A DNA stretch of 53,562 bases from a virus. Lineage: Duplodnaviria > Caudoviricetes. Where the stretch lies: the IMG/VR virus record IMGVR_UViG_3300010413_000045, positions 1 to 53,562 of that record, one strand, 5' to 3'. This document shows, piece after piece, positions 10,534 to 32,217 of the stretch. Both the position numbers and the translations under genes were made by a program. The notes under the pieces were generated by a model. That model was not told the DNA's origin. It was given only the letters and a program-made list of their open reading frames with translations, and searched no databases. Numbering within the stretch: the stretch's first letter is position 1; each line of letters begins with the position of its first letter.

Positions 10534-10606
10534 AGCCCTCAGTGGGACTTGAACCCACAACATACGGTTTACAGGACCGCAACTCTGCCAATTGAGCTAC
10601 AAGGGC
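10534..10606 (-). tRNA. tRNA-Thr(TGT), no encoded CCA, C at position 33
   Basis: GCCCTTG/TGAGGGC acceptor, GCTC/GAGT D-stem, GCGGT-CCTGTAA-ACCGT, GTGGG-TTCAAGT-CCCAC. Confidence 0.88.
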
Positions 10607-29107: not shown

Positions 29108-30673
29108 ATGCCACTCCGTCCACACCAACAACGCTTTTCAGAAATATGCCAACAAATTAACGACGGTGCCAAAATTACAGATGTTATAGCATTCGTCGTT
29201 CCAGGTGGAGGAAAATCAACTTATTGCCCGATAGCCTCACAGCTTATTCATGATGATTATACAAAAATATTATGGGTATGCCCGCGAGAATCTCTTATGA
29301 AGCAAGCCGAACAGGGATTCAGAGGAGACGGGATAGTCGATGTCGGAAACCATGATATAAGGCTGGCGAATAATTCGGGAGACGATCCTTTCCGAGGATG
29401 TTCCGGCGCTGTCACATCCTATCAGGGAATTGTCGCACGCCCTGAATATTGGATAAAAATATCTAAGAAATATAAAATTATCCTTTTTCTCGACGAGTAC
29501 GATTCTTTGATCGAAGAAGGGGCATGGTCCGAACCAATAAAGCAGATTTACGGAAACGCTTTTTTTAGGGTATGCGCTACAGGTACAATCGACCGATCTG
29601 ACGAACTGCCTTTACTGTTTACTCCGTACAACGATGACGGATCAATCGATTTCAGAGATACGGAATCAAGAAAGTGGATCATCTACGGCAAAGAGGAATC
29701 AATCCGTGATGGTTCAACAGTACATTTTACAGCCACTCTGATATCAGGATCTGGGAAATATGTCGATCTTGACGGTATAACGAGAAGTTTTAAAAAGTTT
29801 ACCGGGAAAGGTGATGAACTGATTACAGCTTTCCGCACCGACTTTGCCTATCAAATGTTTTTGCTATGCCTGAAAGACTGGAACGAATACAGAAAAGATC
29901 ACCCATGGGCGAAAATAATCATACTGGCAAACAATATTGACATAGCTGAAAAATATAACAGATGGTTCAAAGAAAACGGTTATGATTTTGACATAGCCAC
30001 ATCGGGAGATGAAAAGCTATCAGCTGAAACTATCAGACGTTTTAAAATGCCTAACGGTTATTTCGGAGCGTTAGACGGGATGGTTGGCATCGGCAAGGTA
30101 TATAAGGGCCTTGATATAAAACCGGCCACATTCCTTGTTTTTCTCACTCGCATCCGTGGTAAATCCTGGGTTGATCAGGCGGTCGGAAGGGTTCAGCGGG
30201 CATTCAAAGGAAAGACTGAGGCTTTTGTTTATGCTCCAGATGATCCAAAAATGAGGAAAGTATTACAGGAAATATCAGATTGTGTTATCCGTAACGCCAC
30301 AGCCGACCCACCAGAGAAAAAAGGAACCTACACATCAGATGAAGAAGCCGGACCGGCACGAACTATCCAGGCTTTATACTCAAAAGCAAATATAGACATT
30401 CCTCAACCCGACCTACCGCTAATTACCGAACATCATGAAACTCAGTCCGAGATCGAGAAGAGGCTTAGAGTAGAAATAAATCACACAATATCTAGGATAA
30501 TATCAAAAGAAGATCAAGGTAACATCAAAACAAAACAAAGAATTATATTTATGAGAATAAGACAAATTGTGAATAATGGAAGAGACGAAAATGGCAAACT
30601 TATTAAAAAATCATTTGATGAGATGTCTATAAAAGAGCTTAAAGCTGTTAAGTTATTTGTTGAAATGTTTTAA
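29108..30673 (+). CDS. Superfamily 2 helicase
   Basis: LRPHQ, PGGGKS, LDEYD, TGT, GLDI, QAVGRVQR. Confidence 0.88.
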   Translation: MPLRPHQQRFSEICQQINDGAKITDVIAFVVPGGGKSTYCPIASQLIHDDYTKILWVCPRESLMKQAEQGFRGDGIVDVGNHDIRLANNSGDDPFRGCSGAVTSYQGIVARPEYWIKISKKYKIILFLDEYDSLIEEGAWSEPIKQIYGNAFFRVCATGTIDRSDELPLLFTPYNDDGSIDFRDTESRKWIIYGKEESIRDGSTVHFTATLISGSGKYVDLDGITRSFKKFTGKGDELITAFRTDFAYQMFLLCLKDWNEYRKDHPWAKIIILANNIDIAEKYNRWFKENGYDFDIATSGDEKLSAETIRRFKMPNGYFGALDGMVGIGKVYKGLDIKPATFLVFLTRIRGKSWVDQAVGRVQRAFKGKTEAFVYAPDDPKMRKVLQEISDCVIRNATADPPEKKGTYTSDEEAGPARTIQALYSKANIDIPQPDLPLITEHHETQSEIEKRLRVEINHTISRIISKEDQGNIKTKQRIIFMRIRQIVNNGRDENGKLIKKSFDEMSIKELKAVKLFVEMF

Positions 30674-30694: not shown

Positions 30695-30774
30695 ATCAGG
30701 CGGTAGGCATACCGGGGGGAGTTCAACACCTTCTCCCCCAAACCTGATTATTTTACAGGTGTTAGGTGTTGTCT
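30695..30774 (+). ncRNA. Structured leader RNA, copy 2
   Basis: ATCAGG/CCTGAT; CGGTA/TACCG; GGGGGAG/CTCCCCC; loop AACACCT vs AGGTGTT-AGGTGTT. Confidence 0.8.
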
Positions 30775-31551
30775 ATGTCAAATAAAATCTGTTCAGTTGA
30801 TGGTTGTTTTTCTAAAGTTTTATGCAAAGGTTTTTGTGTCAAACACTACCAGAGGAACAAAAGGCACGGAGATCCACTTTATTATGAATACAAATCAACA
30901 TGTTCTATTGATGGTTGTAATAATAAGCATGTTGCTTTTGGATATTGCATGAAACATTATTCAAGGTATAGAAATAATGGAGATGCTAAAATATCTTTAA
31001 TAAACAAAGACCATGATGAATTATGTTCTGTCAATGGATGCAGTAATAAGTATTTCTCTAAAGGTTTATGCAAGAAACATTATGAAAGGTTTAAAAAATA
31101 TGGAGATGTAAATTATACAAAGTTAGGAAGAGATCTTGAATGTCATGGAATGACTAGCTCTCCAGAATATGTATCGTGGAGAGAAATGAAGAATAGATGT
31201 ATAAACAAGAAGTCAAATAGGTATTATAGATATGGTGGCAGAGGGATAAAGGTTTGTGATAGGTGGTTAGAGTCGTTTGCAAATTTCTATGAAGATATGG
31301 GTCCAAAGCCTTTTCCTAAAGCTCAAATAGACAGGATAGACAATGATGGAAACTACGAACCTAGGAATTGCAGATGGATAAGCTTGCTTGAAAATATGCG
31401 TCATACATCTAGAGTAAAGTTGTCTATTGAGAAAGCTAGGAGAATAAGAAGTCTATGTAATAGCGTTTCTACTAAGGATTTAGCTAAAATGTATGGAGTT
31501 TCTGAATCTTTGATATCAAAAGTAATAAAAAACGAAATATGGATAGAGTGA
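30775..31551 (+). CDS. HNH homing-type endonuclease with three CSxxGC-CxxHY repeats and C-terminal HTH
   Basis: YGGRGIKVCDRW, IDRIDNDGNYEPRNCRW. Confidence 0.9.
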   Translation: MSNKICSVDGCFSKVLCKGFCVKHYQRNKRHGDPLYYEYKSTCSIDGCNNKHVAFGYCMKHYSRYRNNGDAKISLINKDHDELCSVNGCSNKYFSKGLCKKHYERFKKYGDVNYTKLGRDLECHGMTSSPEYVSWREMKNRCINKKSNRYYRYGGRGIKVCDRWLESFANFYEDMGPKPFPKAQIDRIDNDGNYEPRNCRWISLLENMRHTSRVKLSIEKARRIRSLCNSVSTKDLAKMYGVSESLISKVIKNEIWIE

Positions 31552-31577
31552 TTTAGTGAAAATGTTTTAATTTATTA

Positions 31578-31606
31578 TTGCATTGTGTGGTATGGTGTGA
31601 TAGTAT
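31578..31606 (+). promoter_or_regulatory. Promoter of tRNA-like RNA / recombination operon
   Basis: TTGCAT-N17-TAGTAT, closely similar to GNAT promoter. Confidence 0.7.
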
Positions 31607-31614
31607 TGATATTA

Positions 31615-31765
31615 GGCAAGGTGGCGAAATTGGTAGACGCCGTTGACACCTTTAACGAAAATGCTGGGGATATGAGCCATCCGCCTGAACCGAGTGGTGT
31701 AGGTCACATAAAGTGGGTAATGCTGATCCTTAACCGGCTTGTAGGTTCGAGTCCTGCCCTTGCCA
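31615..31765 (+). ncRNA. tRNA-Leu-like RNA (151 nt) with degenerate anticodon arm and giant variable arm
   Basis: GGCAAGG/CCTTGCC-A; GCG-AAATTGGTAGA-CGC; GTAGG-TTCGAGT-CCTGC. Confidence 0.8.
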
Positions 31766-31794
31766 TCACTATATTTTTATTAAGCGAGGTATTT

Positions 31795-32217
31795 ATGACC
31801 AAAGAAACTCTTATCGAACTGAGAGACGCTCAGAAGGAAGCCGATAAACTGGCTGAAACTCTCAAAGAAAAACGGGACGCATTCGCAAAGACCATTGAAT
31901 CGGAATCGGCGAATTATGCGGAACTCAACAATCTGATTTCTTCCCTGAAGCTGGAACTCACCGCCGAAGCTCTTTCCGACTACGAAGCGAATCCGGCAAG
32001 CAAAACTCTGAATGGTGGGATTAAAATCCGGTCAAGCCAGTCCGTCGAGTATGATGATTCTGACGCTCTGAAATGGGCAAAAGAAAAGGATATGTTCCTG
32101 ACTCTGGATAAAAAAGCCTTTGAAAAAGCGGCTGCCGGTATGGATCTGGATTTCGTGAAAACCGTCACGGTCAATAAAATAGCTTTCCCGACTGCTGGCG
32201 TTGTGGTGGAGGATTAA
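31795..32217 (+). CDS. Gam/Gp157-like protein (tentative)
   Basis: Coiled coil then KTLNGGIKIR...ALKWAKE...LDKKAF; true start after the ncRNA. Confidence 0.55.
   Translation: MTKETLIELRDAQKEADKLAETLKEKRDAFAKTIESESANYAELNNLISSLKLELTAEALSDYEANPASKTLNGGIKIRSSQSVEYDDSDALKWAKEKDMFLTLDKKAFEKAAAGMDLDFVKTVTVNKIAFPTAGVVVED

What the first reader, a model, noticed from the sequence alone, without database searches (positions are those of the whole stretch)
31615..31765. 151-nt tRNA mimic: Leu-type body, broken anticodon arm, ~80-nt branched variable arm
Seen: perfect 7-bp acceptor GGCAAGG/CCTTGCC with A discriminator, Leu-like D-arm (TGGCGAAATTGGTAGACGC) and canonical T-arm. The anticodon arm (CGTTGA-CACCT-TTAACG) has no canonical 7-nt U33 loop. 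The variable position holds a long insert closable by GCTGG/CCGGC and GGAT/ATCC, with internal hairpins. It lies 8 nt after its own promoter and heads the recombination operon; the ORF track mistranslates it as a protein N-terminus. Established: bacterial LeuRS reads A73 and the elbow rather than the anticodon. Inference: a chargeable or processed decoy (e.g. against anticodon nucleases or stringent-response sensors), a tRNA scaffold presenting an RNA domain, or an RNase P/Z processing signal. The insert is too short for a group I intron.
Basis: partly seen in the sequence, partly recalled or inferred. Interest (0 to 1): 0.8.

Follow-up and report, generated by a model that had tools for sequence, protein, structure and literature searches.

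The report
Anticodon-less Leu-type tRNA scaffold RNA
A phage gene keeps the upper half of a leucine tRNA intact but replaces the anticodon part with a long, fast-changing insert, and it belongs to a widespread, unannotated class of such phage genes whose job is still unknown.

Summary
Window 31615-31765 (+) has a perfect 7-bp acceptor stem, A73, a Leu-type D-arm, a canonical T-arm, no canonical anticodon loop and about 100 nt between D- and T-arm.

It is not a one-off. A motif scan found 86 distinct sequences of the same build, 69 from viral contigs and 17 from bacterial genome contigs, 103-162 nt long. Three lie unannotated in cultured phages. Across the 86, scaffold pairs covary strongly: 98.3% of cells are paired and 0 of 500 shuffles reach this. 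U8, G9, the base before the T-stem and A73 are conserved. The middles share no motif, and none has a canonical anticodon arm.

In close relatives of this phage, and in a second lineage, the flanks and scaffold are kept while the middle is replaced outright.

Best reading (0.55): a non-decoding tRNA-Leu-derived scaffold RNA carrying an exchangeable cargo. Processing and possible leucylation are inferred. The cargo's function is unknown, and no RNA data were available. Eight literature searches found no description of the class.

The parts
31578..31606 (+). Possible promoter: -35-like TTGCAT (31578-31583), 17-nt spacer, extended -10 TGaTAGTAT (31598-31606). It ends 8 nt before the element.
   Evidence: Read by eye. 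It does not pass the consensus scan. 31549-31613 is identical in a contig of a close relative (record 9).
31615..31621 (+). Acceptor stem, 5' strand (GGCAAGG)
   Evidence: 7 of 7 pairs with 31758-31764. Pair probability 0.92-1.0. This helix covaries across the class.
31622..31640 (+). U8-G9 and the Leu-type D-arm (3-bp stem GCG/CGC, 11-nt loop with A14, A15, G18, G19)
   Evidence: In the class, T8, G9 and G12 are 86 of 86, and D-stem pairs 10-26 and 11-25 covary.
31641..31657 (+). Hairpin in the anticodon-arm position: 6-bp stem CGTTGA/TTAACG with the 5-nt loop CACCT. There is no U33 and no 7-nt loop.
   Evidence: pair probability 0.79-0.90
31641..31739 (+). Exchangeable middle ('cargo'): everything between the D-stem and the U48-equivalent. 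It is replaced by unrelated sequence in close relatives.
   Evidence: contigs of other metagenomes match 31584-31634/31640 and 31743/31745-31830, with 102 or 66 other letters in between. No similarity to any other class member or to the rest of the genome.
31663..31738 (+). About 76-nt branched arm in the variable-arm position, closed by GCTGG/CCGGC and GGAT/ATCC
   Evidence: MFE and centroid structures. Thermodynamic prediction only; no covariation data exist for this cargo.
31740..31740 (+). T in the position of U48 (partner of A15 in the tRNA core)
   Evidence: T at this position in 84 of 86 class members. The search pattern did not impose it.
31741..31757 (+). T-arm: GTAGG, loop TTCGAGT, CCTGC
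   Evidence: T-stem positions 49-51 covary in the class.
31758..31765 (+). Acceptor stem 3' strand (CCTTGCC) and discriminator A73. CCA is not encoded (trailer TCA...).
   Evidence: A73 in 62 of 86 class members.
31795..32217 (+). First gene downstream (140 aa, no family match). Its homologue sits downstream of the L002 element.
30766..31551 (+). Free-standing HNH homing endonuclease gene directly upstream. It is absent from the related phage L002.
   Evidence: phrog_3377, E = 2.2e-41

Best explanation
The element is a gene for a non-decoding RNA derived from tRNA-Leu. It belongs to a large, so far unannotated class of phage genes.

The class keeps the acceptor stem, the D-arm core and the T-arm of a bacterial tRNA-Leu, together with U8, A14, A15/U48, G18G19 and usually A73. 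It replaces the anticodon and variable arms with a 50-110-nt lineage-specific 'cargo'.

Proposed mechanism:
- Inferred: the RNA is made from a promoter just upstream, at the head of the recombination operon.
- Shown by covariation in the class: the conserved half folds into the tRNA elbow and acceptor helix.
- Inferred: host RNase P, RNase Z or exonucleases and the CCA-adding enzyme treat it as a tRNA. This releases a stable RNA of about 151 nt and cuts it from the downstream mRNA.
- Inferred from identity elements: LeuRS may charge it.
- Shown: it has no anticodon loop. That it therefore cannot read a codon follows from established knowledge of decoding.
- Shown: the cargo is replaced wholesale between close relatives.
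- Inferred: the swap happens by recombination within the shared D-loop and T-loop segments.

In short, the scaffold acts as a natural 'tRNA scaffold' for a variable effector RNA. The target of that effector is unknown.
For: 1. The anatomy is confirmed.

2. A distant relative carries a 115-nt element with a near-identical D-loop and T-arm but an unalignable middle. Its helicase is 42% identical and the downstream gene 39% identical. The element sits in the same place, after the helicase.

3. The pattern AATTGGTAGAC, 57-117 nt, GGTTCGAGTCC matched in 109 stretches in the viral collection; with earlier loci, 114 matches were analysed, and 78 of them had 7 of 7 acceptor pairs. The chance of 7 of 7 is about 0.1% per match (my calculation). 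After filtering there are 86 distinct sequences with 66 different acceptor stems.

4. On alignment A6, 98.3% of 1290 cells form pairs, against 68.7% in shuffles; 383 cells show changes on both sides; 0 of 500 shuffles reach this; slid controls give 38-42%.

5. Conserved positions that the pattern did not impose: T8, G9 and G12 in 86 of 86; T before the T-stem in 84 of 86; A73 in 62 of 86. C74 occurs in 56 of 72 (background C is 19%), and the tail is C-N-A in 46 of 72. The stem extends past 7 bp by at most 1 pair in 61 of 72.

6. These positions match the reported LeuRS determinants: A73, U8-A14, G18-U55 and G19-C56. Deleting the anticodon arm costs only 2.5-fold in affinity (passages of PMC2377443).

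7. None of the 86 has a canonical anticodon arm. ARAGORN -i assigned an anticodon to 55 of the 72 viral sequences it was run on (nothing found in 17). These scatter over many amino acids; Leu in 7 of 55, about 5 expected by chance (my estimate).

8. Cargo swap. In this lineage, contigs with flanks 92-100% identical carry 102 or 66 other letters in place of 108 or 104. In a second lineage (L057 against L026), flanks and the 5' scaffold are 96-100% identical while the cargo is 76 against 95 nt and unalignable.

9. The cargo is not mere filler. Three cargo types are kept across acceptor stems that differ at 4-6 of 7 positions.
Against: - There are no expression data. No RNA run holds the stretch, so transcription, ends, CCA addition and charging are all inferred.
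- The promoter fails the consensus scan.
- The cargoes are on average barely more structured than shuffles: mean z = -0.63, and -0.70 for this one. No shared motif was found, and no complementarity to the phage's own genome beyond chance. So no effector function is demonstrated.
- No partner protein is enriched among the neighbours.
- A73 is absent in 24 of 86.
- The D-loop and T-loop motifs were fixed by my search pattern, and acceptor pairing of at least 6 of 7 was my selection criterion. Those features therefore cannot count as independent evidence.
- One row of A6 (L165) is a composite of two tRNA genes that escaped my filter.
Confidence: 0.55

Rival explanations
1. Only the tRNA-like top half is functional. 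It could be an RNase P/RNase Z processing ('punctuation') signal, a 5'-terminal stabiliser of the operon mRNA, or a sponge for an enzyme that reads the tRNA elbow or acceptor end (LeuRS, RNase P, a tRNA-targeting defence nuclease). On this reading the middle is tolerated filler, shuffled by recombination between paralogous elements.
For: - Only the scaffold is conserved.
- The middles lack shared motifs and are weakly structured.
- Most elements sit in short gaps between co-oriented genes.
- This one sits at the very start of an operon.
- Tandem copies recombine at the scaffold: L057 differs from L031 by one whole unit.
Against: - Filler should shrink, yet the middles analysed are 52-109 nt (my pattern set the lower bound).
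- Three cargo types are conserved across different acceptor stems.
- Neutral sequence in relatives whose flanks are 92-100% identical should be similarly alike, not replaced.
Confidence: 0.2
2. It is an interrupted tRNA gene. The 76-82-nt insert in the anticodon loop is an intron of an unknown small type, removed by host or phage enzymes to give a working tRNA.
For: - Infernal and ARAGORN -i both parse it this way.
- A minority of class members keep a 5-bp anticodon stem at the canonical place, a Leu-type variable hairpin, an encoded CCA and a loop ending in TTAAAA or AAAAAAA. They sit in tRNA clusters (L024, L046, L061, L068).
Against: - For this element the spliced product would have loop CTGATCC, with a pyrimidine at position 37, and a Leu-type D-arm joined to a short variable loop.
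- The required fold is 8.9 kcal/mol worse than the MFE.
- No group I intron model matched.
- The phage encodes no RtcB, Rnl2-type ligase or tRNA-intron endonuclease.
- L002 has no distal anticodon stem at all.
- Across the class, ARAGORN's anticodons look random, and a closing helix is no commoner than in shuffles: 54% against 43%.
Confidence: 0.1
3. It is a decaying pseudo-tRNA-Leu with no function.
For: It has no anticodon loop, the insert is not conserved in relatives, the whole-molecule z-score is not significant, and standard finders miss it.
Against: - The acceptor stem is perfect, and the core is intact here and in 86 sequences with compensatory changes.
- The element is kept at the same locus in a phage only about 40% identical in protein.
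- The scaffold ends are kept while the middle is swapped in close relatives.
Confidence: 0.05
4. The main constraint is at DNA level. The conserved tRNA-like segments would be targets of homing endonucleases or recombination anchors, and the insert would protect against cleavage.
For: An HNH endonuclease gene lies 63 nt upstream. Several upstream neighbours in the class are homing endonucleases: families phrog_314, 59, 19446, 99 and 7168 have 2 members each of 67 scanned. The exchange boundaries coincide with the shared D-loop and T-loop segments.
Against: Compensatory changes in 66 different acceptor stems point to selection on an RNA helix, not on a DNA site. L002 has the element without the endonuclease. 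Most class members have no endonuclease neighbour.
Confidence: 0.05

Closest known systems
Bacterial tRNA-Leu (class II tRNA, Rfam RF00005)
   Same: 7-bp acceptor stem, A73, U8, 3-bp D-stem with the AAUUGGUAGA-type loop, U48-equivalent, and T-arm with UUCGAGU.
   Different: There is no 7-nt anticodon loop and no Leu anticodon. About 100 nt lie between the D- and T-arms, against roughly 40 in an ordinary tRNA-Leu (recalled; the 82-nt tRNA-Leu seen is consistent with this). Standard finders do not call it.
Phage T4 stable RNAs rnaC and rnaD (species 1 and 2 RNA)
   Same: Phage-encoded stable RNAs of 139 and 119 nt, annotated in record AF158101 directly beside tRNA genes. rnaC has a tRNA-like T-arm near its 3' end (sequence). 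That their function is unknown is recalled, not read here.
   Different: Neither contains the Leu-type D-loop motif (sequence). Homology was not tested further. I know of no report of cargo exchange for them (recalled).
YrlA (bacterial and phage Y RNA-like RNAs, RF02553)
   Same: Non-coding RNAs that mimic the tRNA D-arm, T-arm and acceptor stem. M. smegmatis YrlA is cut by RNase P and receives CCA (passages of PMC4201824).
   Different: YrlA is encoded next to Ro60 and binds it. Its tRNA-like module is internal and permuted. Here there is no YrlA match and no TROVE protein, and the RNA ends lie in the acceptor stem.
tmRNA
   Same: A tRNA-like acceptor and T-arm domain whose ends enclose a large non-tRNA insert; chargeable without an anticodon (passage in PMC4201824; remainder recalled).
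   Different: ARAGORN's tmRNA search found nothing. There is no G3:U70, and pair 3-70 here is C-G. It is far shorter, and no conserved reading frame is present (for one cargo type).
Engineered 'tRNA scaffold' for RNA expression, and the tRNA-linked small RNAs of murine gammaherpesvirus 68
   Same: What it would work like: a tRNA body used to process and stabilise an unrelated RNA. Both are recalled. [quoted passage not shown]
   Different: One is man-made and the other belongs to a eukaryotic virus. Neither is Leu-type, and no natural phage example is known to me.

Membership tests
Canonical tRNA (RF00005) | Cloverleaf with 7-bp acceptor stem, D-arm and T-arm | tested here: met
Canonical tRNA (RF00005) | Anticodon arm with a 5-bp stem and a 7-nt loop (U33, purine 37) | tested here: not met
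   The proximal hairpin has a 5-nt loop. The alternative parse gives loop CTGATCC only after removing 76 nt.
Canonical tRNA (RF00005) | Detection at curated thresholds | tested here: inconclusive
   32.9 bits against a gathering score of 29 in the local scan, with an 82-nt insertion. Not reported in the whole-window gathering scan or by default ARAGORN.
tRNA-Leu identity set (bacterial LeuRS substrate) | A73, U8-A14, G18/G19 with the T-loop, and a regular acceptor helix. The anticodon is not required. | tested here: met
   All are present in the sequence. The determinants come from passages of PMC2377443. Actual charging cannot be tested with these tools.
tRNA gene with group I intron | Intron with a group I catalytic core (usually over 200 nt) in the anticodon loop | tested here: not met
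   No intron family among matches up to E = 10 in 31500-31900. The insert is 76-100 nt.
tRNA gene with protein-spliced (bulge-helix-bulge) intron | Splicing endonuclease and ligase available; exon ends rebuild a canonical anticodon arm | tested here: not met
   No PF01974, PF01139 or PF09414 in the phage. The rebuilt loop is non-canonical. Host enzymes are unknown.
tmRNA | tRNA-Ala-like domain plus a tag reading frame | tested here: not met
   ARAGORN -m found nothing. Pair 3-70 is C-G.
YrlA / Y RNA | Match to RF02553 and a neighbouring Ro60 (TROVE) gene | tested here: not met
   no match at E up to 1; no TROVE
Class defined here: anticodon-less Leu-type tRNA scaffold RNAs | Exactly 7-bp acceptor stem, Leu-type D-arm, T before the T-stem, canonical T-arm, at least 50 nt of non-tRNA sequence between them, no anticodon arm | tested here: met
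   The window element is row 1 of A6.
Class defined here: anticodon-less Leu-type tRNA scaffold RNAs | Middle exchanged between close relatives while the scaffold is kept | tested here: met
   for this lineage (contig summaries only; those sequences were not seen). for a second lineage, at sequence level.

The most novel reading that the evidence does not exclude
Phages carry a family of leucylatable, anticodon-less tRNA chimeras. Their hypervariable cargo domains are traded between phages as cassettes, making a natural tRNA-scaffold display system for RNA effectors. These effectors could be decoys, sponges or guides aimed at host RNA-binding defence or translation factors, evolving in an arms race. 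The Leu body would be used because LeuRS, RNase P and the CCA enzyme all ignore the anticodon region.
Probability: 0.25. Interest if true: 0.85.

Novelty: new variant of a known kind. Interest (0 to 1): 0.72.

Why it matters
If these RNAs are expressed, phages have turned a tRNA body into a carrier for interchangeable RNA modules.

- This would add a class of phage non-coding RNAs that current annotation misses. The examples in three cultured phages have no feature at the site.
- It would give a natural precedent for the tRNA-scaffold trick used in RNA engineering.
- It would raise the question of what a charged but non-decoding Leu-tRNA mimic does in an infected cell.
- The wholesale cargo replacement between near-identical phages suggests diversifying selection, as seen at defence and counter-defence loci.
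- Cultured phages of Bacteroides, Lactobacillus and Weissella carry members, so the question can be tested directly.

Tried and rejected
- Relatives of this phage. The phage collection gave no DNA match. Protein-guided scans of viral and metagenome contigs found only one related contig. Covariation of this particular cargo could therefore not be tested.
- A strict pattern that included CTGAT found only that same contig.
- RNA evidence. No RNA holder is listed among the 13 runs returned. All four runs laid were DNA contigs, so nothing can be said about expression.
- Cargo targets. No complementarity or similarity to the phage's own genome beyond shuffles: best 11 nt, 22.3 bits, against 20.3-26.3 in shuffles. 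A 19-nt exact match of the L057 cargo in genome G003 (E = 0.007) lies in the same sense inside an ORF, so I treated it as chance.
- Shared cargo features. No enriched k-mer. No excess of a closing helix, 54% against 43%. No excess of a proximal hairpin, 21 of 86 against a shuffle mean of 16.
- Partner proteins. PHROG scans of 67 upstream and 66 downstream neighbours showed no family in more than 2 members.
- Upstream hairpin. No Rfam match for the conserved hairpin found upstream in one subgroup.
- Bacterial genome scan. Most of the 127 matches were tandem or partly duplicated tRNA-Leu genes; 17 were kept.
- Phage-encoded enzymes. None found in the window for RtcB, RNA ligase, tRNA-intron endonuclease, CCA enzyme, TROVE or reverse transcriptase.
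- Literature. Searches listed no paper describing this class. I read passages only of PMC10690425, PMC2377443 and PMC4201824. The supplementary tables of PMC10690425, which list 10,006 candidate viral RNAs, were closed and may include members.
Full report
**What is there**

The window is a complete 53,562-bp virus record with direct terminal repeats.
- a 7-bp Watson-Crick acceptor stem, GGCAAGG/CCTTGCC, followed by A
- U8-G9
- a 3-bp D-stem with the 11-nt D-loop typical of bacterial tRNA-Leu
- a T-arm, GTAGG-TTCGAGT-CCTGC
- about 100 nt between the D- and T-arms that hold no 7-nt anticodon loop

Rfam's tRNA model reaches 32.9 bits (gathering score 29) in a local scan, but only by placing 82 nt in the anticodon loop. 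That alternative fold is 8.9 kcal/mol worse and has about zero ensemble probability. Default ARAGORN and the whole-window Rfam scan miss the element.

It fails the consensus scan.

**Surroundings**

Upstream lie a helicase gene (29108-30673) and a free-standing HNH endonuclease gene (30766-31551). Downstream lie a gene with no family match (31795-32217), an endonuclease VII-like gene and an SbcC-like gene.

The ORF 31585-32217 that runs through the element is unlikely to be real in that part. In relatives the middle changes length by amounts that are not multiples of three, for example 104 against 66 letters.

**Relatives of this phage**

Only one related contig exists in the viral and metagenome collections. 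Its helicase is 42% identical. It carries, directly after the helicase and a good promoter (10 of 12 matches), a 115-nt element with:
- the same D-loop
- a nearly identical T-arm
- a 7-bp acceptor stem of different sequence, and A73
- a middle that cannot be aligned with the window's

Its D-stem is weaker, and there is no HNH gene.

Contigs from other metagenomes show the same pattern at much closer range.
- Two contigs of run X3 match 31584-31634 or 31584-31640, and 31743 or 31745 to 31830, with 1-6 differences. Between these they carry 102 or 66 other letters where the window has 108 or 104.
- One contig of run X8 matches 31550-31613 and 31743-31775 with 390 letters between.

The break points fall at the edges of the D-loop and T-loop segments. 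I did not see the replacing sequences, only the tool's summary.

**A class, not a singleton**

- With earlier loci, 114 matches were analysed; 78 had 7 of 7 acceptor pairs at the positions a tRNA predicts, and 7 more had 6 of 7. Chance for 7 of 7 is about 0.1% per match (my calculation).
- This gave 72 distinct sequences of 103-162 nt.
- The same scan of bacterial genome contigs also hit its limit at 120 stretches. Most of those were tandem or partly duplicated tRNA-Leu genes.
- After I removed middles that contain a second tRNA motif, 69 viral and 17 genomic sequences remained, 86 in all, with 66 different acceptor stems. One of the 86 (L165) is still a composite that escaped the filter.

On their alignment (A6) the acceptor, D- and T-stems are paired in 98.3% of 1290 cells, against 68.7% in shuffles and 38-42% when partners are slid. 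There are 383 cells with changes on both sides, and 0 of 500 shuffles reach this.

Two caveats apply. Acceptor pairing was my selection criterion, and two T-stem pairs and the loops were fixed by the pattern. The D-stem pairs and T-stem positions 49-51 were not, and they covary (CG 67 and UA 17 at pair 11-25).

Other features not imposed by the pattern:

| Feature | Count |
|---|---|
| T8, G9, G12 | 86 of 86 each |
| T just before the T-stem (U48 position) | 84 of 86 |
| A73 | 62 of 86 |
| C74 (background C is 19%) | 56 of 72 |
| C-N-A tail | 46 of 72 |
| Encoded CCA | 6 of 72 |
| Helix stops at 7 bp (extension of 0-1 pair) | 61 of 72 |

**The middle**

- The middles share no enriched k-mer; 65 of the 72 viral ones are non-redundant.
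- They are on average only slightly more stable than shuffles: mean z = -0.63, with 12.5% below -2.
- They show no excess of a closing helix or of a hairpin in the anticodon position.
- None of the 86 has a 7-nt loop with U33 and a purine at position 37 at the expected place.
- ARAGORN with introns allowed, run on the 72 viral sequences, assigns an anticodon in 55 (nothing found in 17). These anticodons are spread over many amino acids.

A minority (L024, L046, L061, L068), all inside tRNA clusters, keep a canonical anticodon stem and a Leu-type variable hairpin. L024, L046 and L061 also encode CCA; L068 does not. They have an enlarged loop ending in TTAAAA or AAAAAAA. These could be genuine interrupted tRNA-Leu(UAA) genes, so the class may be a continuum.

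**Exchange shown at sequence level**

In a group of gut-type phages the elements occur in tandem arrays. L057 and L031 are 99.5% identical and differ by exactly one unit, as expected from recombination between scaffold repeats.

L057 and L026 share about 97% identical upstream sequence, an identical 26-nt 5' scaffold and about 96% identical downstream sequence. Their cargoes, 76 and 95 nt, cannot be aligned.

Conversely, three cargo types recur on quite different acceptor stems, with 4-6 of 7 positions changed:
- L025/L057 and L168
- L174 and L206
- L034 and L082

At least some cargoes are therefore under purifying selection.

**Context and cultured examples**

Neighbouring genes are diverse, mostly DNA replication and recombination genes. 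No family occurs in more than 2 of 67 upstream or 66 downstream neighbours. Several upstream neighbours are homing endonucleases. Twenty-two of the 72 viral loci have ordinary tRNA genes within 3 kb (script tally; the listing shows a few more), always on the same strand.

Unannotated members lie in three cultured phages:
- Bacteroides phage BS-TP2, between a DUF2303 gene and a NinG/Rap junction endonuclease gene
- Weissella phage WC29P3
- Lactobacillus phage phiJL-1

The last two have variant D- and T-loops.

**How it most likely works**

The conserved parts are the parts that enzymes blind to the anticodon read.
- Passages of PMC2377443 report the critical elements for a bacterial LeuRS as A73, the U8-A14, G18-U55 and G19-C56 interactions, and the orientation set by U48.
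- The same passages report that deleting the whole anticodon stem-loop lowers affinity only 2.5-fold.

I therefore infer that the RNA is processed like a tRNA, is stable, and may be leucylated, but cannot decode. The scaffold would serve as a carrier for a variable module.

None of this is shown experimentally. No RNA run holds the stretch.

The phage itself encodes none of the following:
- RtcB
- Rnl2-type ligase
- tRNA-intron endonuclease
- CCA enzyme
- Ro60
- YrlA
- reverse transcriptase

**Comparison with known systems**

It fails membership of:
- canonical tRNA, because it has no anticodon arm
- intron-bearing tRNA genes
- tmRNA
- YrlA

The nearest functional analogues are the T4 stable RNAs rnaC and rnaD, annotated beside tRNA genes in AF158101, tmRNA and YrlA as tRNA mimics, and engineered tRNA scaffolds (recalled).

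Eight literature searches listed nothing that describes Leu-type, anticodon-less phage RNAs with exchangeable middles. A survey of 10,006 candidate viral RNAs mentions tRNA-like candidates only in general terms in the passages I read, and its supplements were closed.

**Verdict**

I rate it a new variant of a known kind (tRNA-mimic RNA) with an unusual cassette-like behaviour. Interest is 0.72, limited by the lack of expression data and of any cargo function.

Noticed in passing
window 30766-31551 (+): A free-standing HNH homing endonuclease gene (phrog_3377, E = 2.2e-41) sits between the helicase gene and the tRNA-like element. The related phage L002 lacks it at this place.
   Followed up: partly
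window 10534-10606 (-): An ordinary tRNA-Thr(TGT) gene, 58.1 bits. It is the only canonical tRNA in the genome.
   Followed up: no
L002:2250-2300: Between the promoter and the L002 element lie a Shine-Dalgarno-like GGAGG, a 7-codon mini-ORF (ATG at 2261, stop at 2282-2284) and a hairpin whose loop repeats the D-loop motif (GATAATGGTAGACG). MAFFT aligned the window's D-arm to it.
   Followed up: no
L094, L008, L006, L091, L012, L047, L072 (the 25 nt before each element); L238:371-394 in Bacteroides phage BS-TP2: A conserved hairpin directly 5' of the element: GAC(A/G)G, a 4-6-bp stem with compensatory changes, loop GAAAGA, then (C)AAAT (CATCT in BS-TP2). It has no Rfam match. It could be a processing or regulatory signal.
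   Followed up: partly
L057:9254-9385 (-) and the same region of L026: Between two Leu-type elements lies a 133-nt RNA-like unit. It has a 7-bp acceptor stem, an Ile/Ala-type D-arm and a long stem, and inside these a second T-arm plus D-arm that gives a weak YrlA match (22.2 bits, gathering score 69). This is a tRNA-like body carrying a tRNA-elbow-like cargo. The scaffold idea may therefore not be limited to Leu-type bodies.
   Followed up: partly
L057 oriented 655-690 and 935-965: A repeated hairpin with loop GTCTGTGAAGAT precedes each tRNA-like unit of the array. The first copy resembles a stretch of Bacteroides phage BS-TP2.
   Followed up: no
L242:395-476 (Xanthomonas phage Xoo-sp13, MN047793.1): An apparently normal 82-nt tRNA-Leu gene with encoded CCA has no feature in the record.
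   Followed up: no
L119, L131, L144, L153 and similar loci (Flavobacteriia genomes): The 5' third of a tRNA-Leu gene is duplicated about 75 nt upstream of a complete copy. This is the pattern left by an element integrated into the tRNA gene.
   Followed up: no
L151:563-676 (-) (Dehalococcoidia chromosome): A chromosomal class member whose anticodon arm is extended into a hairpin of about 18 bp, while the Leu-type variable arm is kept.
   Followed up: no
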